Source: an uncultured Candidatus Saccharibacteria bacterium (GTDB taxonomy: Bacteria; Patescibacteriota; Doudnabacteria; UBA920). From it: a DNA stretch of 64,000 nt. The position numbers and the translations under genes are program-made. The stretch is from assembly GCA_964436545.1 (NCBI GenBank), contig CAYTCJ010000003.1:3168-67167 (forward strand), given 5' to 3'. Under the pieces are notes generated by a model. That model did not search any database and had not been told where the DNA came from. It saw only the letters and a list, made by a program, of their open reading frames with translations. Positions 674 through 32,117 of this stretch are shown here, one piece after another (within the stretch, counting starts at the first letter, position 1; every line of letters starts with the position of its first letter).

Positions 674-932
674 GTTTTGGGTTTTTTAAGATTAGGTTTT
701 AGGTGTAAAAGATAAGTGTTGGACTGCGAAGTCAATTAATTTTAAAAAATAGTGGATATTTACCCAGCAAGTCATTTTTAATTTTCATATAACTTTAAAT
801 TTTGGTTATCAATGAGTTTGTGATTAATGTTTGTGGGTAAGTAAAGTTGTACTGCTGGGTCATACTCTGTTTCCGCATAGCTTAGCGGGATTTTTTTATT
901 GCCTTTTTAAGTAATTTGGAGTACTATTTATA

Positions 933-959
933 TATGATAAAGTATGATAGTATCATACT
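933..959. promoter_or_regulatory. Palindromic operator-like site with TATGATA half-sites: TATGATAaagTATGATAgTATCATAct
   Basis: A perfect 9-1-9 palindrome AGTATGATA-G-TATCATACT at 941-959 plus an extra direct half-site at 933-939. The same palindrome core recurs at 2616-2632. Confidence 0.55.
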
Positions 960-1281
960 TTTTTGTTCTTTCCAGTTTGGAATGGCTCGTCTCCCTACGG
1001 GAGACAGGCAAGTTTTGGTAGCAAAATTGTTCTGATATTGCAAGTAAAGCAATTTTATTATTGTCATGCTGAATTTATTTCAGCATCCAGTTGACATATA
1101 GATTCTGAAACCCACCAGAGGTTGGCAGGCAAGTTCAGAATGACAGAGGAAATTTATTTTCTTTATATTGCTATACAATGATAGGTGTTTTGCTCCCCAA
1201 GCTTGCCTTGCCTTGGTTCTATCCCATGGACTTTAAGGCAGGGTCATTCCTCCAAATCTCAAAAGGGGGAGTGAATAGAAA

Positions 1282-2466
1282 TTGAAGAAGGAGAAGGAAA
1301 TGCGGAATTTTATAGCAGAGAGAATTAATGCCGTCCCCCCTTCAGGGATACGGCGTTTTTTTGATATTATTGCTACCATGCCCGAGGTGATCAGTCTCGG
1401 GGTGGGAGAGCCTGACTTCGACACCCCGGAGCAGATCGTATCCGCGGGTGTTCAATCCCTCCACGCTGGCCGGACTCACTACACTTCCAACTACGGGACG
1501 ATTGAGTTGCGTCGGGCGCTCGCGGATCATCTCGATCGTCGTTACGGCGTCCAGTACGACCCACCCACGGAGATCCTGATCACCGTAGGCGCGTCCGAGG
1601 CCGTGGACCTGGCGCTTCGGGCTACCTGCGACCCGGGCGATGAGGTGATTCTCCACGAGCCGAGCTACGTCGCTTACGTTCCCGCGATCGTGTTCGCCGG
1701 CGGCACGGTCGTGCCGGTCGCCACGTGCTTCGAGGACGACTTCGCGCTGGACCCGACGGCGGTGGAGGCCGCGATCACGCCGAGGACAAAGGCACTGTTC
1801 CTGGGCTACCCGTGCAACCCGACCGGCGCGGTATTGCCGGATGCCGTGCAAGACGAGCTGGCCCGGATCGCCGAGCGCCATGACCTGATTGTGTACAGCG
1901 ACGAGATCTACGACCGCCTGGCCTACGGTAGCTACCGCCACCGGGCGTTCAGCTCGCTGCCCGGGATGCGCGAGCGAACGATATTGATGGGCGGCTTCTC
2001 CAAGGCTTACGCGATGACCGGCTGGCGGGTCGGCTACGTCGCGGCACCCGCCCCGATCCTCGAGGGGATGCTGAAAGTCCACCAGTACGGGATCATGTCG
2101 GCGTCCACCGTCGCCCAGGACGCGGCGCTGGCCGCGCTCCAGGCCGGCGAATCCGCGGTCGTCTCGATGGTCGCCGAGTACGACCGACGTCGGCGCTTGT
2201 TGGTCGACGGCCTCAATTGTATCGGCCTCGAGACCTTCGAGCCGCGTGGCGCGTTCTACGCGTTCCCGCGGATCACCTCGACGGGTCTCACGTCCGACGA
2301 GTTCACCGAACGGCTCCTGACCGAGGAGCACATCGCGGTCGTCCCGGGGAGTGCTTTCGGTCCGTCGGGCGCTGGGCACGTGCGCATGTGCTATTGCACT
2401 GCGTACGAAAAGCTCGAGGAGGCTTTGCGCCGAATTGAGCATTTCGTACGTAAAATTAAGGGCTAA
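1282..2466 (+). CDS. PLP-dependent aminotransferase class I/II (aspartate/aromatic aminotransferase-like); strongly high-GC gene body
   Basis: 394 aa. The N-terminal stretch (GVGEPDFDTP...) and the SFSKAYAMTGWRVGY PLP-lysine region are typical of AspC-family enzymes. GC is roughly 65% versus a background under 40%. The first ~20 and last ~25 codons are AT-rich. Confidence 0.85.
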   Translation: MKKEKEMRNFIAERINAVPPSGIRRFFDIIATMPEVISLGVGEPDFDTPEQIVSAGVQSLHAGRTHYTSNYGTIELRRALADHLDRRYGVQYDPPTEILITVGASEAVDLALRATCDPGDEVILHEPSYVAYVPAIVFAGGTVVPVATCFEDDFALDPTAVEAAITPRTKALFLGYPCNPTGAVLPDAVQDELARIAERHDLIVYSDEIYDRLAYGSYRHRAFSSLPGMRERTILMGGFSKAYAMTGWRVGYVAAPAPILEGMLKVHQYGIMSASTVAQDAALAALQAGESAVVSMVAEYDRRRRLLVDGLNCIGLETFEPRGAFYAFPRITSTGLTSDEFTERLLTEEHIAVVPGSAFGPSGAGHVRMCYCTAYEKLEEALRRIEHFVRKIKG

Positions 2467-2615: not shown

Positions 2616-2632
2616 GTATGATACTATCATAC
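2616..2632. promoter_or_regulatory. Palindrome GTATGATA-C-TATCATAC immediately upstream (4 nt) of the RHH-NTase start codon
   Basis: A perfect 8-1-8 inverted repeat with the same core as 941-959. It sits where an autoregulatory operator of the downstream RHH-domain protein would be expected. Confidence 0.55.
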
Positions 2633-2636
2633 ATAT

Positions 2637-3566
2637 ATGCGAGAACGACTTACCATTACTTTAAAACAAGACTTGTTAGAGGCTTTAGATGCCAATATTG
2701 ATGGCGATAAACTTAGAAACAGAAGTCATGCCATTGAATATTATTTGTCTAAAAGTTTAGGGCAAAAAGCTCTTAAAGTGTTAATTTTAGCCGGAGGCAA
2801 ACCGGTAGATTTTGGTAAAGCTCATGGCGGAAAATTACCCAAGGCAATGGTAAAAATTGCGGGTAAGCCACTCTTAGAACAAACTTTGCTAAAATTAAAA
2901 TCTGCCAAATTTAAAGATATCATTATTTCTCTGGGTGAAGGGGGTAAAACTATTAGAGACTATTTTAAAACCGGCGAAGCTTTAGGTTTGCATATTCAAT
3001 ATATTGAACAAGACAAGAGTGTTACCGGGCCGGCCAGCGCCCTCCTTCAGGCAAAAAAATGGGTAGACAATAGTAATTTTTTGTTAATTTATGGAGATGT
3101 GCTTTCGGATATAGATTTTTCTGATTTAATCCAATTCCATTCTTTAAACAAACCCTCCATTTGCACTATGACTTTAACTTCCACTGAAAGCATTGGGCTT
3201 TGGGGTTTGGCCAAACTGCAGGGCAGTCGGGTGGTGGAATTTGAAGAAAAACCGCAAAATCCTAAAACTTTTTCTCGGCTCATTAACGCCGGTATATATT
3301 TAATGGAACCGGGAATTTTTAAATACATTTCACCCCCTCCCAGCCTCCCCCCTCCCTCCTACGCCAAGGCTTCGGAGGACAGCCAAGGGGGAGGAATAAA
3401 GGTGGGGGGAAGTAAATTAGAAAGTGGAATTTTGCCTCGGCTCGCGGAAGAAGGAAAGTTATATGGGTATGTGTATGAAGGTTTATGGTTAGATATTAGT
3501 AATAGCGCAGTGTATAAACAAGCCATAAAAGAAATGAACAAGAATGACAAAAATGAACAAGAATGA
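2637..3566 (+). CDS. Ribbon-helix-helix (CopG-like) DNA-binding domain fused to NDP-sugar pyrophosphorylase (mannose-1-P guanylyl / glucose-1-P thymidylyltransferase-like)
   Basis: The N-terminus MRERLTITLKQDLLEALDANIDGDKLRNRSHAIEYYL has a strand-helix-helix RHH pattern. It is followed by LILAGGKPVDFG...GKPLLEQTL, the G-rich NTP-transferase signature loop. The gene also contains an in-frame GC-rich palindromic insert (see 3333-3410). Confidence 0.7.
   Translation: MRERLTITLKQDLLEALDANIDGDKLRNRSHAIEYYLSKSLGQKALKVLILAGGKPVDFGKAHGGKLPKAMVKIAGKPLLEQTLLKLKSAKFKDIIISLGEGGKTIRDYFKTGEALGLHIQYIEQDKSVTGPASALLQAKKWVDNSNFLLIYGDVLSDIDFSDLIQFHSLNKPSICTMTLTSTESIGLWGLAKLQGSRVVEFEEKPQNPKTFSRLINAGIYLMEPGIFKYISPPPSLPPPSYAKASEDSQGGGIKVGGSKLESGILPRLAEEGKLYGYVYEGLWLDISNSAVYKQAIKEMNKNDKNEQE
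3333..3410. repeat. GC-rich palindromic element inserted in frame in the nucleotidyltransferase gene
   Basis: Sequence ccccctcccagcctcccccctccctcc...ggaggacagccaagggggagg...ggtgggggg has C-run and G-run inverted symmetry. It encodes a Pro/Gly-rich stretch (ISPPPSLPPPSYAKASEDSQGGGIKVGG) that interrupts an otherwise ordinary low-GC gene. Confidence 0.6.
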
Positions 3567-3623
3567 CAAAAATCAGCGGAAATTAATTTTGTCAATTTTG
3601 TCATTTATTTAATTTTTGTCATT
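3534..3623. repeat. TGACAAAAAT inverted/direct repeat module (copy A)
   Basis: A 19-nt tandem duplication of atgaacaagaatgacaaaa is followed by three inverted TTTTGTCA(T) copies. A near-identical module lies at 55801-55891. Its TGA supplies the stop codon of the upstream gene. Confidence 0.7.
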
Positions 3624-3656
3624 AAGCCATAGAGGCACATTTTTTATAAAAAATAT

Positions 3657-5652: not shown

Positions 5653-7023
5653 ATGAGGATAATTGCCGACCTCCAAATTCATAGTAAATATTCTCGTGCT
5701 TGTTCCCAAGACCTTAATCCACAAAATATTGGCTTGTGGGCGCAAAAAAAAGGTATTCAGGTTATTGGCACCGGGGATTTTACGCATCCCAAATGGCTTT
5801 TGGAGTTAAAGGAGAATTTGGTAGAAGCAAAACCGGGGTTGTATCGATTGCGATCTAATTCGGGTCATTCAAATACTATTCGTGGATTCGGGTCGGCTCA
5901 TTTTATGCTTACTGCGGAAGTTTCGAGTATTTACAAACAAGGCGACAAAGTAAGGCGGGTGCACAATATGATTCTGGCGCCGAACTTTCAGGCAGTTGAT
6001 AAAATTATTGCCGGCTTAGAAAAGCGAGGAGCTAATTTAAAAAGTGACGGCCGACCGATTATGGGCATTAAGTGTCCGGATTTGGTAAAGCTGGTTAAAG
6101 AGGCCTCCTTAGAAGCGGAAATTATTCCGGCGCATGCTTGGACTCCGCACTTTGGCGTGTTTGGTTCCTTGTCGGGTTTTAATAGCATAGAGGAAGCGTT
6201 TGGTGAGGAGGCAAAACACATTTTTGCCATTGAAACCGGCCTGTCAGCTGACCCAAAAATGAATTGGCAAATTTCATCGCTCGACCAGTATGCTTTGGTG
6301 TCTAACAGCGATGCGCATAGTTTAAGAAAACTGGGGCGGGAGGCCAATGTGTTTGAAATAGAGGAGAAAAAATTATCTTATGCGGAAATAATTCGCGTGA
6401 TTCGGAATAAAGATCCCAAAGAATTTCTTTACACTTTGGAATTTTTTCCCGAGGAAGGCAAATACCATTTAGATGGCCATGCCGATTGCAAATTTTCTTG
6501 TGAACCTTTGAAAACCCAAAAATTAAAAGGGGTTTGTCCGGTGTGTGGAAAAAAATTATTGGTGGGTGTGTTAAGTCGGGTAGAGGCTTTGGCCGATAGA
6601 GCCTATGGGTTTATGCCGAAACGGGCTGTGCCTTTTAAAAATGTAATTCCGTTAGAAGAAATTATTGCCGATGTGCTGGGTGTGGGGGTGGCATCTAAAC
6701 GAGTGGTGGAGATGTATGAGCGAATGGTGAACTCCTCCCGACCTCCTCTTTCGAAAAGAGGAGGGGTATTGCAGTCACCCCCTCTTTCTTTAAAGAGGGG
6801 GGAGGGGGAGTTGTGTGATGAGTTTTCCATTCTTCTCGATTTAACCGAAGCGCAAATTACCGCCATCTCGAATCCAGCCATAGCCCAAGCCATCATCCGC
6901 GTTCGCGAAGGTAAGGTTAAACTAGAAGGTGGGTATGATGGCGTGTTTGGTAAAATTGAAATTTTTAGCCAAGCAGAAAGGGAAAAATTGTTTTTAAAAC
7001 CTAAACAAGTAACTTTATTTTAA
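5653..7023 (+). CDS. PHP-domain nuclease, endonuclease Q-like (TIGR00375-like) with C4 zinc finger
   Basis: The N-terminal IADLQIHSKYS motif is PHP-type. CEPL...CPVCGKK forms a zinc ribbon. The overall length and layout resemble EndoQ. The gene carries an in-frame palindromic insert (6733-6812). Confidence 0.6.
   Translation: MRIIADLQIHSKYSRACSQDLNPQNIGLWAQKKGIQVIGTGDFTHPKWLLELKENLVEAKPGLYRLRSNSGHSNTIRGFGSAHFMLTAEVSSIYKQGDKVRRVHNMILAPNFQAVDKIIAGLEKRGANLKSDGRPIMGIKCPDLVKLVKEASLEAEIIPAHAWTPHFGVFGSLSGFNSIEEAFGEEAKHIFAIETGLSADPKMNWQISSLDQYALVSNSDAHSLRKLGREANVFEIEEKKLSYAEIIRVIRNKDPKEFLYTLEFFPEEGKYHLDGHADCKFSCEPLKTQKLKGVCPVCGKKLLVGVLSRVEALADRAYGFMPKRAVPFKNVIPLEEIIADVLGVGVASKRVVEMYERMVNSSRPPLSKRGGVLQSPPLSLKRGEGELCDEFSILLDLTEAQITAISNPAIAQAIIRVREGKVKLEGGYDGVFGKIEIFSQAEREKLFLKPKQVTLF
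6733..6812. repeat. Tandem pair of GC-rich hairpins inserted in frame in the EndoQ-like gene
   Basis: Two perfect hairpins, cctcctctttcgaaaagaggagg and cccctctttctttaaagagggg(ggaggggg). They encode SSRPPLSKRGGVLQSPPLSLKRGEGEL. Confidence 0.65.
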
Positions 7024-9834: not shown

Positions 9835-11229
9835 ATGCACAAAAAAACGAAAATTATTTGCACCTTGGGACCGGCGAGTGAAAGTATAAAAATCATTGAA
9901 CAAATGGTGAGGGCGGGAATGAATGTGGCACGCTTAAATTTTTCGCATGGCGACCACGAGAATCATAAATTATTAATAGACAATATCCGCCGGGTGTCTG
10001 GCAAAGTGGGCGTGCCGATTGCTATTATTCAAGATTTGCACGGTCCAAAAATTCGGATTAAAGATTTAACCGCGCCAATAGCGGTAAAAGTCGGCGATAA
10101 GGTGGTCATTGGTAAAGATTTTAATTTAGACACTGAAGTTTTTAAATCGATTCGCACGAAACAAAGAATTCTAATTGAAGACGGACTAATTGAATTGGAA
10201 GTGGAGAAAGTAACCGGTAAACAGATTACTTGCACGGTGCTGTCGCCGGGAAAAATTCAAAATCATAAGGGGGTCAATTTGCCCAGAACCAAATTAAAAA
10301 TTCCCATTCTTACCACCAGAGACATTGAGGACTTGAAGTTTGGTTTAAAGAACAATGTGGATTATGTGGCGTTATCTTTTGTAAGGACTGCCAAAGACGT
10401 GAGGAATTTAAAAAAATTGATTGCCAAGTTTAATCCTAAAACCTTACTGCCTCCGAAGATTATTGCCAAAATCGAAAAGCCGGAAGCGGTAAAGAATTTT
10501 AATGCAATTTTAAGAGAATCAGACGCCGTAATGGTGGCTAGGGGCGATTTGGGTGTGGAAATGCCGGAGTCGCAAGTGCCAATTTTACAAAAGGAAATTA
10601 TTCAAAAATGTTTAAGGTCGGCTAAGCCGGTAATTGTCGCCACGCAAATGTTAGACAGTATGATACGAAACCCCAGGCCAACTCGGGCGGAAGTGAGCGA
10701 TGTGGCAAATGCGGTAATTGACCAAAGCGATGCGGTTATGCTTTCGGGCGAGAGCGCGTTTGGTAAGTATCCGGTGAAAACTGTACAAGAAATGGCTAAA
10801 ATTATTGAAGTCACGGAGAAATCCCATTTTTTGCCCCCGCATAAACATTTGCAAGACAAAGTGGTAAGCAAAGTGGAAGCAATTTCCGAAGGTGTGTTTG
10901 ATTTGGCTGAACATACGAAAGCCTCTGCGATTGTTGGGGCTACGGAGAGCGGGTTTACTGCCAGACAAGTGGCTCACGAAAGGCCGTTCCATCCCAAACT
11001 TGTGATGTTTACACCGAAAGAAAAAACTTTGAGACAAATGGCATTAATTTGGGGAGTGGAGAGTTTTTATATGCCTCAAGTAAAAACTTTGGAACAGTTA
11101 ACTGCCACTATGTTTAAAATTTTAAAAGCTAAACGAGTTTTAAGAACCGGGCAAAAGGTAATTATGGTAACCGGCGAACCTATTGGCACTAAAGAGAGTT
11201 TAAATTTAGTGGAAGTTAAAGTAATTTAG
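9835..11229 (+). CDS. pyk: Pyruvate kinase
   Basis: 464 aa with TKIICTLGP, the MVARGDLGVE motif and a C-terminal regulatory domain. Confidence 0.9.
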   Translation: MHKKTKIICTLGPASESIKIIEQMVRAGMNVARLNFSHGDHENHKLLIDNIRRVSGKVGVPIAIIQDLHGPKIRIKDLTAPIAVKVGDKVVIGKDFNLDTEVFKSIRTKQRILIEDGLIELEVEKVTGKQITCTVLSPGKIQNHKGVNLPRTKLKIPILTTRDIEDLKFGLKNNVDYVALSFVRTAKDVRNLKKLIAKFNPKTLLPPKIIAKIEKPEAVKNFNAILRESDAVMVARGDLGVEMPESQVPILQKEIIQKCLRSAKPVIVATQMLDSMIRNPRPTRAEVSDVANAVIDQSDAVMLSGESAFGKYPVKTVQEMAKIIEVTEKSHFLPPHKHLQDKVVSKVEAISEGVFDLAEHTKASAIVGATESGFTARQVAHERPFHPKLVMFTPKEKTLRQMALIWGVESFYMPQVKTLEQLTATMFKILKAKRVLRTGQKVIMVTGEPIGTKESLNLVEVKVI

Positions 11230-11966: not shown

Positions 11967-12143
11967 TATTTTAAGGTTTAAATGACATTCGTTGAAAATT
12001 AGGTTATAATAGTAGAAATCATTTATCATACAAACCCCATTAGAGAATTATTGGGAGTAAGATATTAATAGGCTTTAGGTTATTGTTTTATTTTTATTTA
12101 CAAAGCTTTATTCTATATTCTCTAACGGGGCAAGTCATACTTT

Positions 12144-30160: not shown

Positions 30161-31069
30161 TTGAATCAAATCGAAGAAGAAAGGAGCAGGAGGGTGAAAG
30201 TATCAGAACTCTACGTTTACCCAATTAAATCGTGCCGTGGAATTGGGCTTTCGGAAGCTCGAGTCAACGCGCGCGGAATTGAACACGACCGGGAGTATAT
30301 GGTCATAGACGCCGATACGGGCATGTTCGTAGCCCAGCGGCAGGACAACGGTCTCGGCATCGAAATCAAGAGCATGTGCCAGGTGAAGACGAAACTCCAA
30401 CCCATGAACTTCATTCACATCTGGGCACCGGAAATGAGGGGCGTGCACATTAACCCCAAACTGGCCGGTAGCGAGATGCGGGTTCAGGTCTGGAAGAACG
30501 GCGGCATCCTGGCTTATGACATGGGCGACTTTTTGGCCGATTGGTTTACCAAGTTCCTAAGTCGCGAACGGCCTGGCAAGTATCGTCTGGTGCGTATGAC
30601 CGACGACTTCATCCGGCGGGCCAAGATCGGTGACGCTCAAGTGGGTTTCGCCGACGCTTACCCGTTCATGGGGATCGGCTGCAGCGCACTCGGGGAACTC
30701 AACCGACGGTTGGCGGTCAAACGCCATCCCGAACTTCCCATGAACCGCTTCCGGCCGAACATCGTGTTTGGCGACGCTGCTCCGCACTCCGAAGACCACA
30801 TGAAGGTCATCAAAATCGGCGACGAGGGCGGCGTAATCCTCGACGGTATGACGCTATGCGAACGCTGCCCCTTGCCCTGCACGGATCAGGAAATCGCTGT
30901 GCGGACCAAGGAACCCAGCGCCACCTGGGCGGAATATCGTCGCGGTCGGCACATCGGTATCACCGATCCGACAAAACAGGGAGCTGTCTTCTTCGGGCGT
31001 AACTTCAACCACCGCGGACCCGGTTACATCAAGGTCGGCGACTACGTGGAGATTCTGGAATCGGACTAG
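30161..31069 (+). CDS. MOSC-domain protein (MOSC N-terminal beta-barrel + MOSC; YcbX/mARC-like), high-GC
   Basis: VSELYVYPIKSCRG is the MOSC_N signature. The more likely start is the GTG at 30194, preceded by aaggagcaggagg. GC is about 60% against a background under 40%. Confidence 0.75.
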   Translation: MNQIEEERSRRVKVSELYVYPIKSCRGIGLSEARVNARGIEHDREYMVIDADTGMFVAQRQDNGLGIEIKSMCQVKTKLQPMNFIHIWAPEMRGVHINPKLAGSEMRVQVWKNGGILAYDMGDFLADWFTKFLSRERPGKYRLVRMTDDFIRRAKIGDAQVGFADAYPFMGIGCSALGELNRRLAVKRHPELPMNRFRPNIVFGDAAPHSEDHMKVIKIGDEGGVILDGMTLCERCPLPCTDQEIAVRTKEPSATWAEYRRGRHIGITDPTKQGAVFFGRNFNHRGPGYIKVGDYVEILESD

Positions 31070-31170
31070 CACTCGAGGCGTGGGCCGTTGACCTTAACCG
31101 GCAACGATTCACGCTTCTCATCTTAGCAAATCAAGGATTGGTTTATTGAGATGAGAAAAGAAGGAGGAGT

Positions 31171-31437
31171 ATGTTAGCAATCGCACGCTTAATGGTGCAT
31201 ATGCACCACCACATTTGGGCGATTCTTGTGGTGTTTCTTGTAGGAGTCGGAGCTTTTGTTCTCGGCTCTTACATCCAAAACGCAATTGCCCGCAACGTGG
31301 TTTTCGGTATCGCAATCATCGCTGTGGCGTTTGTCATGGCGACGGGCGCTTCTATCGGCCCTATGGACGACTGGCAGCACCAGCACGGAAGCTGCCTGCT
31401 CGAAACAATCGACCAAATGCAGAGAGGTAAAAAGTGA
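31171..31437 (+). CDS. Small hydrophobic membrane protein, His-rich N-terminus, high-GC
   Basis: 88 aa with two predicted TM helices. It is translationally coupled (ATGA-type overlap) to the downstream amidase. Coding status is moderately likely. Confidence 0.45.
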   Translation: MLAIARLMVHMHHHIWAILVVFLVGVGAFVLGSYIQNAIARNVVFGIAIIAVAFVMATGASIGPMDDWQHQHGSCLLETIDQMQRGKK

Positions 31438-32117
31438 AGCTACGCAATCTGTTGTTCGTGCTCATGGTTCTGTCTGTCGCTTTCGGGTGCGCCAATGCGC
31501 AGTCGCCGCAAAAGCAGCCCGAATGGCAGGCCAACTGGTTCCCCATTAACTGGGAGGCGGAGAAGATTGAGAAACAAATCGTCACCGATACAATCTTCAT
31601 CCACCATACGGCATGGGAACCGAACGCCACATGGCAGCGGCTGTCCGAGGAGCAGAAAAAACGGCTCTACGATGCCCGCTACGCCATCGCCGACAAAGAC
31701 CCGTTCGTGCAAGGCGAGCCGTCGCACTCGGGTCACTATCGCTTAGTGGACGGCAAATTGGTGGAAGTGTTTTACGCCTACCACTGGATAGTCCGGCAAG
31801 ACGGTAAGGTCGAACGGCTTCTGGATGACCGCGAAGTCGGCTGGCACGCCGGCAACTGGGCGGAGAACATGCGGTCAGTGGGTATTGTTTTCGATGGCGA
31901 CTACAGCAAAAAGCCGCCGCCGAAGAAAGCGCTCAAGGCAGCAGCCAAGCTCATCCAGCAATACGTCCAGCAGTATCCGACAATTACCCGCCTCAAGGCA
32001 CACCAGGACGTGCGCAAGACCGAGTGCCCGGGTGCATGGTATCATGCGGCAGACAAGCACGGGCAGACCGGCCGGGACCGACTGCTCAAATACGCAAAGC
32101 TAATATTGTCCGAGTAA
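31434..32117 (+). CDS. N-acetylmuramoyl-L-alanine amidase, Amidase_2/PGRP (T7-lysozyme-like) family, secreted; high-GC
   Basis: Signal peptide. IFIHHTAWEP, GWHAGNWAENMRSVGIVFDGDY and HQDVRKTECPG match zinc amidase_2 catalytic motifs. Confidence 0.75.
   Translation: MKLRNLLFVLMVLSVAFGCANAQSPQKQPEWQANWFPINWEAEKIEKQIVTDTIFIHHTAWEPNATWQRLSEEQKKRLYDARYAIADKDPFVQGEPSHSGHYRLVDGKLVEVFYAYHWIVRQDGKVERLLDDREVGWHAGNWAENMRSVGIVFDGDYSKKPPPKKALKAAAKLIQQYVQQYPTITRLKAHQDVRKTECPGAWYHAADKHGQTGRDRLLKYAKLILSE

What the first reader, a model, noticed from the sequence alone, without database searches (positions are those of the whole stretch)
2616..3566. RHH DNA-binding domain fused to an NDP-sugar pyrophosphorylase, with a candidate operator present twice
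The protein starts with a canonical ribbon-helix-helix pattern (RLTITLKQDLLEALDANIDGDKLRNRSHAIEYYL) joined directly to a G1P-thymidylyl/M1P-guanylyltransferase-like domain. A perfect palindrome GTATGATA-C-TATCATAC ends 4 nt before its ATG. A second copy with an added direct half-site (933-959) lies upstream of the high-GC aminotransferase. The direct coupling of a transcriptional-repressor fold to a sugar-activating enzyme is unusual. The site is so close to the start codon that a leaderless or tightly autoregulated transcript is implied.
Basis: partly seen in the sequence, partly recalled or inferred. Interest (0 to 1): 0.6.

Follow-up and report, generated by a model that had tools for sequence, protein, structure and literature searches.

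The report
NikR-like repressor fused to sugar-nucleotide enzyme fold
A gene in this candidate-phyla-radiation bacterium joins a small DNA-binding head, closest to the nickel regulator NikR, to a sugar-nucleotide enzyme fold that has lost a key catalytic motif. Its predicted DNA site sits on its own promoter and on a second conserved promoter nearby, so it is very probably an undescribed metabolite-sensing repressor family.

Summary

- **Gene.** ORF 2637-3566 encodes a ribbon-helix-helix (RHH) head of about 45 aa fused to an NDP-sugar-pyrophosphorylase fold.
- **Head.** Its best solved relative is the RHH domain of E. coli NikR. The strand pattern R-x-T-x-T is the same.
- **Sites.** The palindrome GTATGATA-N-TATCATAC occurs exactly twice in 64 kb (0.22 expected). 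Its half-site GTATGAT equals the published enterobacterial NikR-box half-site.
- **Conservation.** About 25 syntenic Doudnabacteria-like loci carry the motif, as a palindrome or as 10-bp tandem repeats. It lies both in front of the fused gene and about 1.5-2.8 kb upstream, on a TTGACA-N16-18-TATGAT promoter. Several non-syntenic lineages also keep it in front of the gene (enrichment P about 1e-28 to 1e-32).
- **Leaderless start.** In the window the right half-site TATCAT lies 6 nt before the ATG. Six other genes here show the same geometry, so a leaderless, self-repressed transcript is likely.
- **Enzyme domain.** It keeps four catalytic or ligand-binding residues but lacks the GxGTR Thr-Arg in all 120 nearest clusters. 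It probably senses a ligand rather than acting as a normal enzyme.
- **Second promoter.** It drives a structured leader and a swappable cargo gene. Here the cargo is an aminotransferase acquired from a high-GC lineage.

No binding, ligand or transcript start has been shown experimentally.

The parts
860..865 (.). Distal half-site TCATAC (O0), 68 nt upstream of the site-1 cluster and just before the terminator of the upstream gene.
   Evidence: Read directly from the sequence. It corresponds to the conserved GTGGATATCATAC element found about 55 nt upstream of the repeat cluster in most orthologous loci.
871..897 (+). Terminator-like hairpin plus T-run that ends the GlmU-like nucleotidyltransferase gene (ORF 32-673).
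   Evidence: Terminator scan. An equivalent GC hairpin plus T-run lies at the same position in the orthologous loci.
933..958 (+). Site 1 (promoter P1 operator cluster): a direct half-site TATGATA (933-939), two bases, then the palindrome GTATGATA-G-TATCATAC (942-958).
   Evidence: The same three-repeat cluster occurs at the syntenic position in about 20 loci. There the middle repeat is the -10 of a TTGACA-N16-18-TATGAT promoter. The TTGACA box itself is not recognisable in the window.
979..1022 (+). Promoter-proximal leader hairpin GGAATGGCTCGTCTCCC-TAC-GGGAGACAGGCAAGTTTTGG.
   Evidence: Conserved in L109 and L161, with changes in the loop and on one side of the stem. It occupies the same place as the covarying hairpin that follows P1 in 16 other loci.
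1062..1146 (.). Variable insert bounded by TGTCAT...ATGACA, which looks like a miniature mobile element (MITE).
   Evidence: This stretch is replaced by unrelated sequence in L109 and L161, while both flanks are conserved.
1200..1280 (+). Conserved two-hairpin leader just before the cargo gene. The second hairpin pairs CATTCCTCC with the Shine-Dalgarno-like GGGGGAGTG.
   Evidence: Alignment A6 and its consensus fold. It is conserved in front of different cargo aminotransferases. It has no Rfam match even at E<=1.
1300..2466 (+). Class I/II aminotransferase: the cargo gene of the P1 slot, acquired by horizontal transfer.
   Evidence: Pfam PF00155 at 1.5e-74. It is 83-86% identical to proteins of high-GC genomes that NCBI labels 'Candidatus Limn...'. 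GC3 is 0.80 against 0.34-0.44 for neighbouring genes. The same xenolog occupies the same slot in the independent contig L161.
2534..2610 (+). Long hairpin (GAAGCGGAAA ... TTTCCGCTTC) followed by a T-run: the terminator of the cargo gene.
   Evidence: Read from the sequence. The terminator scan flags 2583-2599 plus the T-run. The stretch is conserved in L109.
2616..2632 (+). Site 2 (the gene's own operator): the perfect palindrome GTATGATA-C-TATCATAC. Its right half TATCAT (2625-2630) is the likely -10 box.
   Evidence: A palindrome or tandem form is present upstream of the orthologous gene in nearly all syntenic loci and in several non-syntenic lineages. The -10 box followed by 6 nt and the ATG is a geometry shared with six other genes in the window.
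2637..2771 (+). RHH DNA-binding domain (aa 1-45), of the NikR/CopG type.
   Evidence: Pfam RHH_1. The family profile hits NikR at E=4.9e-4 and then CopG. Predicted helices span residues 11-20 and 29-45. The domain is nearly invariant across the family.
2772..3563 (+). Domain with the NDP-sugar-pyrophosphorylase fold. The GxGTR motif is replaced by GGKPVD.
   Evidence: PF00483. Foldseek and profile matches to G1P-thymidylyltransferase, tlr0611, MurU and GDP-mannose pyrophosphorylase. Motif analysis.
3330..3413 (+). GC-rich hairpin-forming insertion, in frame (aa 232-259), which forms a disordered loop.
   Evidence: It is absent from most orthologs and shorter in the three closest. pLDDT is below 50 for residues 235-257. 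The 96 nt around it fold at -44 kcal/mol.

Best explanation
ORF 2637-3566 encodes a one-component transcriptional repressor. Its N-terminal ribbon-helix-helix head is of the NikR/CopG type. As in other RHH proteins, it is expected to dimerise and place a two-stranded sheet (strand residues R4, T6, T8) in the major groove at GTATGA(TA) half-sites. Two dimers bound one helical turn apart would occupy the palindrome at 2616-2632. That palindrome contains the -10 box (TATCAT) of the gene's own promoter, whose transcript probably starts at the A of the ATG and so has no leader. Binding there would shut off its own synthesis.

The same protein would occupy the cluster of three to four half-sites at 860-958. 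In related genomes this cluster is laid over the spacer, the -10 box and the start region of a strong promoter. That promoter drives a structured leader RNA and a replaceable metabolic gene, here a horizontally acquired aminotransferase.

The C-terminal domain has the fold and most ligand-binding residues of an NDP-sugar pyrophosphorylase but has lost the catalytic Thr-Arg of GxGTR. It most probably binds a sugar nucleotide, a sugar-1-phosphate or an NTP. It would then act as the effector-sensing and oligomerising module, much as the nickel-binding domain does in NikR.

What is shown: the domain assignments, the site statistics, the conservation and placement of the sites, and the loss of the motif. 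What is inferred: binding itself, repression, the identity of the ligand, the oligomeric state and the transcript start.
For: RHH assignment:
- Pfam RHH_1 scores 20.7 bits against a cut-off of 20.5.
- The family profile hits the E. coli NikR RHH domain over residues 2-43 at E=4.9e-4, and CopG next.
- Helices are predicted at residues 11-20 and 29-45.
- The head is the most conserved part of the protein across lineages that are only 24-43% identical overall.

Half-site:
- GTATGAT/ATCATAC equals the published NikR box: GTATGA-N16-TCATAC in PMC7055735 and GTATGAT-N13/14-ATCATAC in PMC545781.
- The strand is RLTITL here and RVTITL in NikR.

Statistics:
- The window has two exact palindromes against 0.22 expected.
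- In 38 loci, 34 of 154 TATGATA copies lie within 150 nt upstream of the gene (P=8.5e-29).
- 49 of 261 GTATGA copies lie within 200 nt upstream (P=3.8e-32).

Arrangement:
- There are 29 direct pairs at 10-nt spacing and 23 inverted pairs at 9-nt spacing.
- The sites overlap TTGACA-N16-18-TATGAT promoters.
- Non-syntenic lineages L020, L022, L035, L037 and L038 keep the repeats directly before the gene.

Leaderless start: a -10-like hexamer lies exactly 6 nt before the ATG in 7 of 56 ORFs, against 0-1 at other spacings. Most genes in the window lack a Shine-Dalgarno sequence.

Sensor reading:
- None of the 120 nearest clusters keeps GxG[TS][RK]; the loop reads GG-x-P-V.
- Changing Thr-Arg to Met-His in GalU lowers activity about 500-fold, and the natural GalF carries that change (PMC4643126).
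- The Lys of PK, the Asp of YGD, the Lys of EEKP and the Asp of WLD are all invariant.

No other similar RHH protein is encoded in the window.
Against: - There are no binding, expression or ligand data of any kind.
- The Pfam RHH match is only at threshold, and below it when the whole protein is scanned.
- The half-site contains a -10-like hexamer, so part of its conservation could reflect promoter function alone.
- In the window neither site has a recognisable -35 box.
- About ten distant homologs show no site upstream. One close relative, L161, has lost site 2 to an inserted toxin-antitoxin pair.
- Some distant fused homologs keep Arg or Lys at the catalytic position. The ancestral protein, and possibly this one, could therefore still catalyse a reaction.
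- That NikR residues R3, T5 and T7 read the GTATGA bases is recalled from the NikR-DNA crystal structure paper, which I could not open.
Confidence: 0.62

Rival explanations
1. The protein is a true bifunctional enzyme-repressor, like PutA or BirA. The C-terminal domain is an active sugar-1-phosphate nucleotidylyltransferase with an unusual phosphate-binding loop. Its substrate or product controls binding of the RHH head to the same GTATGA sites.
For: Four catalytic or ligand-binding residues are invariant: the Lys of PK, the Asp of YGD, the Lys of EEKP and the Asp of WLD. The fold and profile matches are to active enzymes. Distant fused homologs keep loops closer to the canonical one, such as GAGARMRP, GRGTKLRP and GEGVRFRP. 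GalF, which has a degenerate motif, still has residual activity (PMC4643126).
Against: All 120 nearest clusters lack the Thr-Arg, and no basic residue is conserved in the replacement loop. Loss of these residues costs about 500-fold in GalU (PMC4643126). Some fused homologs are truncated to about 210 aa and cannot be enzymes. A separate GlmU-like nucleotidyltransferase with an intact GKGTRM motif is encoded next door.
Confidence: 0.22
2. The repeats are promoter elements or the site of some other regulator. The RHH-like head has no DNA-binding role and serves, for example, only as a dimerisation module.
For: TATGAT and TATCAT are 5-of-6 matches to the -10 consensus. In orthologs the middle repeat sits where a -10 box should be. 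Synteny alone could keep the sites and the gene together within Doudnabacteria.
Against: A -10 box does not need three or four copies of an 8-nt unit in both orientations at one-turn spacing. TATGAT is not a common hexamer in the window: 33 copies against about 58 expected. The repeats follow the gene into non-syntenic lineages. The half-site equals that of NikR, the closest solved RHH relative (PMC545781). The head is the most conserved part of the protein.
Confidence: 0.1
3. The two palindromes are recombination sites, or the inverted ends of a mobile cassette that carries the foreign aminotransferase.
For: The two copies are exact reverse complements of each other and bracket a GC-rich foreign gene. 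The gene in this slot differs between close relatives.
Against: The exchange junctions between the window and L109 lie at about 1275 and 2457. That is about 320 nt inside site 1 and about 160 nt inside site 2, not at the palindromes. Both sites persist in loci that have no cargo gene at all: L006, L010 and L016. A 1-nt spacer does not resemble the core sites of known recombinases (own knowledge).
Confidence: 0.03

Closest known systems
NikR (nickel-responsive RHH repressor, E. coli; PDB 1q5v, 2hzv)
   Same: It is the best solved match to the head, at E=4.9e-4 over the whole domain, with the same R-x-T-x-T strand and NRS-x-AI helix start. The DNA half-site is identical, GTATGA(T) (PMC7055735, PMC545781). 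The logic is the same: an RHH head plus a C-terminal ligand-binding and oligomerising domain that represses by sitting on a promoter.
   Different: The C-terminal domain here is a pyrophosphorylase fold, not the ACT-like nickel-binding domain. The half-sites are adjacent, with hexamers 5 bp apart or in 10-bp tandem, instead of 16 bp apart. Direct as well as inverted arrangements occur. There is no link to nickel.
PutA (RHH + proline dehydrogenase + P5C dehydrogenase), and enzyme-repressors such as BirA and NadR
   Same: A DNA-binding domain is fused to an enzyme fold and controls genes, including its own, in response to the enzyme's ligand (own knowledge).
   Different: The enzyme folds are unrelated. 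In PutA, BirA and NadR the enzyme is fully active. Here the catalytic GxGTR motif is lost.
CopG and the omega repressor (plasmid RHH repressors)
   Same: The CopG strand KKRLTITL is nearly identical. As I recall, omega binds 7-bp units in direct or inverted orientation and cooperatively, which matches the mixed arrangements seen here.
   Different: Those proteins are 45-71 aa and stand alone, with no effector domain. Their operator sequences differ.
GalF and GMPPA (catalytically weak pyrophosphorylase paralogs with regulatory roles)
   Same: They keep the pyrophosphorylase fold with a degenerate or disrupted N-terminal signature, so ligand binding is kept while catalysis is reduced (PMC4643126 for GalF; GMPPA from own knowledge; GMPPA/GMPPB structures are among the fold matches).
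   Different: They regulate partner enzymes through protein-protein contacts, not DNA. They have no DNA-binding domain.

Membership tests
Ribbon-helix-helix superfamily (Pfam RHH_1 PF01402, CopG/Arc/MetJ/NikR type) | Sequence match to the family model | tested here: met
   20.7 bits against a cut-off of 20.5 for residues 1-48; only 16.1 bits in the whole protein. The family profile hits NikR at E=4.9e-4 and CopG at 0.07. The result is borderline in Pfam but consistent across methods.
Ribbon-helix-helix superfamily (Pfam RHH_1 PF01402, CopG/Arc/MetJ/NikR type) | N-terminal strand with alternating polar residues, followed by two helices | tested here: met
   The strand RLTITL is followed by predicted helices at residues 11-20 and 29-45. 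The strand itself is not modelled in a monomer, as expected for a fold that forms only on dimerisation.
Ribbon-helix-helix superfamily (Pfam RHH_1 PF01402, CopG/Arc/MetJ/NikR type) | Obligate dimer that binds DNA through the paired strands | not testable with these tools
   Only single-chain prediction is available, and there is no DNA docking.
NikR family | C-terminal ACT-like tetramerisation domain with the His/Cys nickel site | tested here: not met
   The C-terminal domain is NTP_transferase PF00483. The protein is therefore not a NikR.
NikR family | Operator built from GTATGA / TCATAC half-sites | tested here: met
   Sites at 942-958, 2616-2632 and 860-865, compared with PMC7055735 and PMC545781. 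The spacing differs: 5 bp between hexamers instead of 16.
NDP-sugar pyrophosphorylase (PF00483; RmlA, GalU, GMPP, MurU type) | Rossmann-like nucleotidyltransferase fold | tested here: met
   Foldseek E=1e-16 to 3hl3, 8x7s and 4y7u. Profile E=2.5e-35 to 8x7s.
NDP-sugar pyrophosphorylase (PF00483; RmlA, GalU, GMPP, MurU type) | N-terminal signature G-x-G-T-R with the catalytic Arg | tested here: not met
   GGKPVD aligns with GGYGTR and AGKGTR. None of the 120 nearest clusters keeps it. The Pfam match begins only at profile position 19.
NDP-sugar pyrophosphorylase (PF00483; RmlA, GalU, GMPP, MurU type) | Lys of PK, Asp of the GD motif, the EKP motif and the C-terminal Asp | tested here: met
   K69, D154, K205 and D286 are invariant in alignment A1.
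NDP-sugar pyrophosphorylase (PF00483; RmlA, GalU, GMPP, MurU type) | Catalytic activity | not testable with these tools
   This needs an enzyme assay.
Leaderless mRNA | A -10 box about 6-7 nt before the start codon, with no Shine-Dalgarno sequence | tested here: met
   TATCAT-ACATAT-ATG. Six other genes in the window have the same 6-nt spacing, and most genes lack a Shine-Dalgarno sequence.
Leaderless mRNA | Transcript 5' end at the start codon | not testable with these tools
   This needs 5'-end mapping.

The most novel reading that the evidence does not exclude
The protein is a repressor that senses a sugar nucleotide through a domain derived from a pseudo-enzyme, and it is core to Doudnabacteria and related Patescibacteria. 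Besides its own gene, it guards a conserved 'expression socket': an operator-covered promoter, a promoter-proximal hairpin and an undescribed two-hairpin leader that sequesters the ribosome-binding site. These reduced symbionts repeatedly plug foreign metabolic genes into this socket. The cargo includes aminotransferases of many subtypes, a PfkB kinase and a HAD-kinase fusion, and here a gene from a high-GC lineage labelled 'Candidatus Limn...'. Newly acquired genes would thus come at once under host-tuned control.
Probability: 0.2. Interest if true: 0.8.

Novelty: new variant of a known kind. Interest (0 to 1): 0.6.

Why it matters
- **A testable regulatory circuit.** To my knowledge, candidate-phyla-radiation bacteria have very few recognisable transcription factors and almost no mapped regulatory circuits. 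This gives a concrete one: a conserved regulator, its DNA motif, two target promoters and a small set of candidate ligands.
- **An annotation gap.** Source names call these proteins plain nucleotidyltransferases, and the precomputed Pfam domains list an RHH domain for only 1 of the top 120 clusters. Metabolic reconstructions may therefore be counting a regulator as an enzyme.
- **Modular evolution of regulators.** A DNA-reading head with NikR's half-site has been moved onto a different sensor domain, with the half-site spacing changed to suit.
- **Gene exchange in the neighbouring slot.** The swappable cargo hints at frequent, targeted gene replacement, and possibly at the partners these organisms exchange genes with.

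Tried and rejected
- **Rfam, whole window.** At gathering thresholds it gave only two tRNAs.
- **Rfam, 13 related loci.** It gave only rRNA, tRNA and one intron.
- **Rfam, window 850-1330 at E<=1.** It gave nothing. The leader elements are therefore not a described RNA family.
- **Metagenome scan for the exact palindrome.** It returned 120 loci. Only about eight sit next to the fused gene and three more are P1-type sites; the rest look like chance or unrelated contexts. It could not define a regulon. Two hits lie upstream of ParD-like RHH antitoxin genes (L129, L130), which I note but do not interpret.
- **Search with the head alone.** It returned only short proteins. The best one, P0121, is a frameshift fragment from an error-rich assembly and not a free-standing head.
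- **Other GTATGATA copies in the window.** The copy at 10658 lies inside a pyruvate-kinase-like coding region and is taken as chance. The copy at 12024 is a single intergenic half-site of unknown meaning.
- **Cassette-end idea for the palindromes.** Rejected, because the exchange junctions lie well inside them.
- **Assembly chimera as the source of the GC-rich gene.** Rejected, because an independent contig (L161) has the same gene in the same slot.
- **-35 boxes in the window.** I found no convincing -35 box for either site.
- **NikR-DNA structure paper.** It could not be opened.
Full report
**1. What is in the sequence**

ORF 2637-3566 (+, 309 aa) begins MRERLTITLKQDLLEALDANIDGDKLRNRSHAIEYYL. 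The perfect palindrome GTATGATA-C-TATCATAC lies at 2616-2632 and ends 4 nt before the ATG. A TGA at 2619 rules out any earlier in-frame start.

A second copy, GTATGATA-G-TATCATAC, lies at 942-958 and is the exact reverse complement of the first. It is preceded by a direct half-site TATGATA at 933-939. Allowing three mismatches, these are the only two matches in the window. Shuffles give 0.22 on average and never reach two. A further hexamer, TCATAC at 860-865, corresponds to a conserved distal site in relatives.

The window averages about 40% GC. It has a 1.2-kb GC-rich block at 1300-2466 between the two sites.

**2. The protein**

*Domain calls.* Pfam gives NTP_transferase at E=1.9e-22. It gives RHH_1 at 20.7 bits (cut-off 20.5) for residues 1-48 alone, but only 16.1 bits in the whole protein.

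*The head.* A profile of the first 47 columns from 19 family members finds the RHH domain of E. coli NikR as the best solved relative (E=4.9e-4, residues 2-43). CopG comes next through the strand and first helix.

*The model.* The AlphaFold model has mean pLDDT 71. It shows an unstructured N-terminus, helices at 11-20 and 29-45, and then a Rossmann-like domain. An unformed strand is expected for a monomer model of a fold that forms on dimerisation.

*The enzyme half.* Foldseek against the PDB matches glucose-1-phosphate thymidylyltransferase (3hl3), tlr0611 (8x7s), MurU (4y7u) and GDP-mannose pyrophosphorylases at E about 1e-16. The profile search agrees.

**3. The family**

The fusion is not a one-off. 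The best 120 clusters at 90% identity cover 93-99% of the query. They come from Patescibacteria, mostly labelled Doudnabacteria. Of these, 117 carry RNRSHAIE. Source names call them nucleotidyltransferases, and only one of the 120 clusters has an RHH domain in the precomputed Pfam column.

The head is nearly invariant. It stays recognisable in homologs that are only 24-43% identical overall, from MAGs labelled Berkelbacteria, Gottesmanbacteria, Shapirobacteria, Pacebacteria and Peribacteria, and one labelled archaeon.

**4. The sites in relatives**

*Counts.* I fetched 39 genome loci. In 38 of them, 34 of 154 TATGATA copies fall in the 150 nt before the gene, which is 1.6% of the sequence (P=8.5e-29). 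For GTATGA, 49 of 261 copies fall in the 200 nt before it (P=3.8e-32).

*Two conserved positions.* In the syntenic Doudnabacteria-like loci the arrangement matches the window.
- A palindrome or tandem pair lies 30-190 nt before the gene.
- A cluster lies 1.5-2.8 kb upstream, or only about 0.35-0.8 kb upstream in the three loci that lack a cargo gene.

*Structure of the upstream cluster.* It has a fixed layout.
- A distal inverted site, GTGGATATCATAC, comes first.
- The terminator of the upstream gene follows.
- Then comes TTGACA, and 16-18 nt later TATGAT.
- One repeat lies in the spacer, one is the -10 box itself, and a third lies just downstream. The third is either inverted at a 9-nt offset or direct at a 10-nt offset.
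- Across loci there are 29 direct pairs at 10 nt and 23 inverted pairs at 9 nt.

*Non-syntenic lineages.* L020, L022, L035, L037 and L038 share neither the GAPDH nor the GlmU-like neighbour. They still have two such repeats directly before the gene.

*Background frequency.* The hexamer TATGAT is not frequent in the window, with 33 copies against about 58 expected. It is therefore not simply the local -10 box.

**5. The link to NikR**

The published E. coli NikR operator is GTATGA-N16-TCATAC (PMC7055735; PMC4486848). The enterobacterial consensus is GTATGAT-N13/14-ATCATAC (PMC545781). The half-site here is the same seven bases.

The strand that enters the groove reads RVTITL in NikR and RLTITL here. 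From memory of the NikR-DNA crystal structure, which I could not open, R3, T5 and T7 make the base contacts. The equivalent residues here are R4 (nearly invariant) and T6 and T8 (invariant in alignment A1).

This is the strongest argument that this head reads these sites. The spacing differs: the hexamers are 5 bp apart here and 16 bp apart in NikR. That is what one would expect if a different C-terminal domain holds the two heads.

**6. Leaderless start**

Most genes in the window lack a Shine-Dalgarno sequence. Among 56 non-overlapping ORFs, a -10-like hexamer ends exactly 6 nt before the ATG in seven, against none or one at every other spacing. This gene is one of the seven, with TATCAT-ACATAT-ATG.

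The right half of the palindrome is thus the likely -10 box of a leaderless transcript. A protein bound to the palindrome would cover positions about -21 to -5.

In relatives the distance from site to ATG varies from 4 to about 190 nt. The difference is due to inserted hairpin elements. The leaderless arrangement is therefore specific to this lineage and L109.

**7. Is the C-terminal half an enzyme?**

In the profile alignments GGKPVyFesekksLPKAM lines up with GGYGTRLRPLTLSTPKPL of GDP-mannose pyrophosphorylase and AGKGTRVRPITYTIPKPM of tlr0611. The Thr-Arg is replaced by Val plus a variable residue.
- None of the 120 nearest clusters keeps it, and no basic residue is conserved in the loop.
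- In GalU the same two residues changed to Met-His cost about 500-fold in activity. The natural paralog GalF carries that change and is nearly inactive (PMC4643126).
- K69, D154, K205 and D286 are invariant, so ligand binding is probably retained.

More distant fused homologs have loops nearer the canonical form (GAGARMRP, GRGTKLRP, GKGIKMRP). Others are cut down to about 210 aa.

I read this as an ancestral enzyme-regulator that became a sensor in this clade. Residual or altered catalysis is not excluded.

**8. What the upstream promoter drives**

*Conserved flanks, variable cargo.* Across loci the flanking genes (the GlmU-like gene, the fused gene, GAPDH and an inositol-monophosphatase-family gene) are 40-77% identical to those of the window. 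The gene in the slot is only 21-30% identical to the window's, or unrelated. The slot genes are mostly 21-56% identical to each other.
- In most loci the slot gene is a class I/II aminotransferase of varied subtype.
- It is a HAD plus uridine-kinase-like protein in L019 and a PfkB kinase in L023.
- It is absent in L006, L010 and L016, where both site clusters persist.

*Exchange limited to the coding region.* L109 is about 79% identical in DNA across the fused-gene block and 74-90% identical in the other aligned flanks. It shares the leader ends and the 3' untranslated region, but its coding sequence in the slot does not align at all.

*Origin of the window's cargo.* The window's aminotransferase is 83-86% identical to proteins of high-GC genomes. 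The few that carry a name are labelled 'Candidatus Limn...'.
- One such homolog lies on a 2.69-Mb contig, and the 7.2-kb stretch fetched around it has GC 0.74.
- GC3 of the window's gene is 0.80, against 0.96 in that genome and 0.34-0.44 in neighbouring genes.
- The same gene, at 78% DNA identity, sits in the same slot in the independent contig L161. This is real horizontal transfer, not a chimeric assembly.

**9. RNA elements in the leader**

- In 16 loci the promoter is followed by a hairpin, AAAGGCAGATG-TGGGAGCC...GACCCCGCC-CATCTGCCTTT. Its base and internal loop are conserved and its apical stem covaries.
- The window, L109 and L161 instead have GGCTCGTCTCCC-TAC-GGGAGACAGGC at that place.
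- Just before the cargo gene lies a two-hairpin element, at 1200-1280 in the window. Its second stem pairs a CCUCC-type strand with a Shine-Dalgarno-like strand, with some compensatory changes.
- None of these elements matches Rfam.

**10. Rival readings**

- *Active enzyme-repressor.* A PutA- or BirA-like protein remains possible (about 0.2).
- *Promoter elements only, or another factor's site.* This is unlikely given the repeat number, the mixed orientations, the association outside synteny and the NikR half-site identity (about 0.1).
- *Cassette ends.* This is excluded by the position of the exchange junctions and by loci without cargo (about 0.03).

**11. Verdict**

The element is best described as a new variant of a known kind. 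It is an RHH one-component repressor built like NikR but with a pyrophosphorylase-derived effector domain, conserved across many Patescibacteria. It has a defined motif and two target promoters. All mechanistic steps beyond sequence and conservation are inferences that await binding, ligand and transcript-mapping experiments.

Noticed in passing
window 1300-2466; loci L109, L161, L162: The GC-rich aminotransferase is a recent horizontal acquisition. It is 83-86% identical in protein to genes of high-GC genomes labelled 'Candidatus Limn...', with GC3 of 0.80. It sits in a slot whose coding sequence is exchanged between close relatives, while the leader and 3' untranslated region stay conserved.
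   Followed up: partly
window 1200-1280 and 979-1022; alignment A6: A conserved two-hairpin leader, whose second stem sequesters a Shine-Dalgarno-like sequence, precedes the different cargo aminotransferases. An upstream hairpin can pair with it. There is no Rfam match even at E<=1, so it is a candidate undescribed cis-regulatory RNA.
   Followed up: partly
L002-L019, L043, L138, L156 just downstream of the upstream promoter; alignment A4: A hairpin of about 50 nt follows the promoter in 16 loci. Its basal stem (AAAGGCAGATG/CATCTGCCTTT) and internal loop are conserved, its apical stem covaries, and a T-run follows. It could be an attenuator or a small RNA. It is not in Rfam.
   Followed up: partly
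window 3330-3413: A GC-rich insertion that forms a hairpin (about -44 kcal/mol) lies in frame inside the regulator gene and gives a disordered Pro/Gly-rich loop. A similar-looking stretch lies in ORF 5653-7023 near 6775-6805. This is reminiscent of palindromic elements that insert into coding regions.
   Followed up: partly
window 1062-1146; upstream regions in L001, L002, L003, L005, L017: Small hairpin elements bounded by TGTCAT...ATGACA, or ending in GGATGACA, are inserted at different places in leaders and 5' regions of related loci. They look like miniature mobile elements (MITEs).
   Followed up: no
window 3535-3624: A 19-nt tandem duplication, GAACAAGAATGACAAAAAT x2, creates the C-terminal tail and stop codon of the regulator. 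Three inverted copies of TTTTGTCA follow, in the gap before the GAPDH gene. GAPDH itself has TATAAA 6 nt before its ATG.
   Followed up: no
whole window: Most genes lack a Shine-Dalgarno sequence. Seven of 56 ORFs have a -10-like hexamer exactly 6 nt before the ATG, which suggests that leaderless mRNAs are common in this organism.
   Followed up: partly
L006, L007, L009, L014, L015, between the operator and the ATG: Arrays of TYYGTAG / CTACRRA repeats, direct and inverted, lie in the 5' region of the regulator gene in some relatives. They could be another protein's site or a structured leader.
   Followed up: no
L129 8997, L130 8468: The same 17-nt palindrome lies directly upstream of ParD-like RHH antitoxin genes in unrelated, higher-GC contigs.
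   Followed up: no
window 30161-32117: A second island of raised GC (0.54) holds a MOSC-like ORF and an ORF that I read by eye as amidase-like. It may be another acquired segment.
   Followed up: no
L161 2897-3443: In one close relative a BrnT/BrnA-type toxin-antitoxin pair is inserted directly upstream of the regulator gene and replaces its operator.
   Followed up: no
L006 32-304: A group I intron lies within the 23S rRNA gene of a related genome.
   Followed up: no
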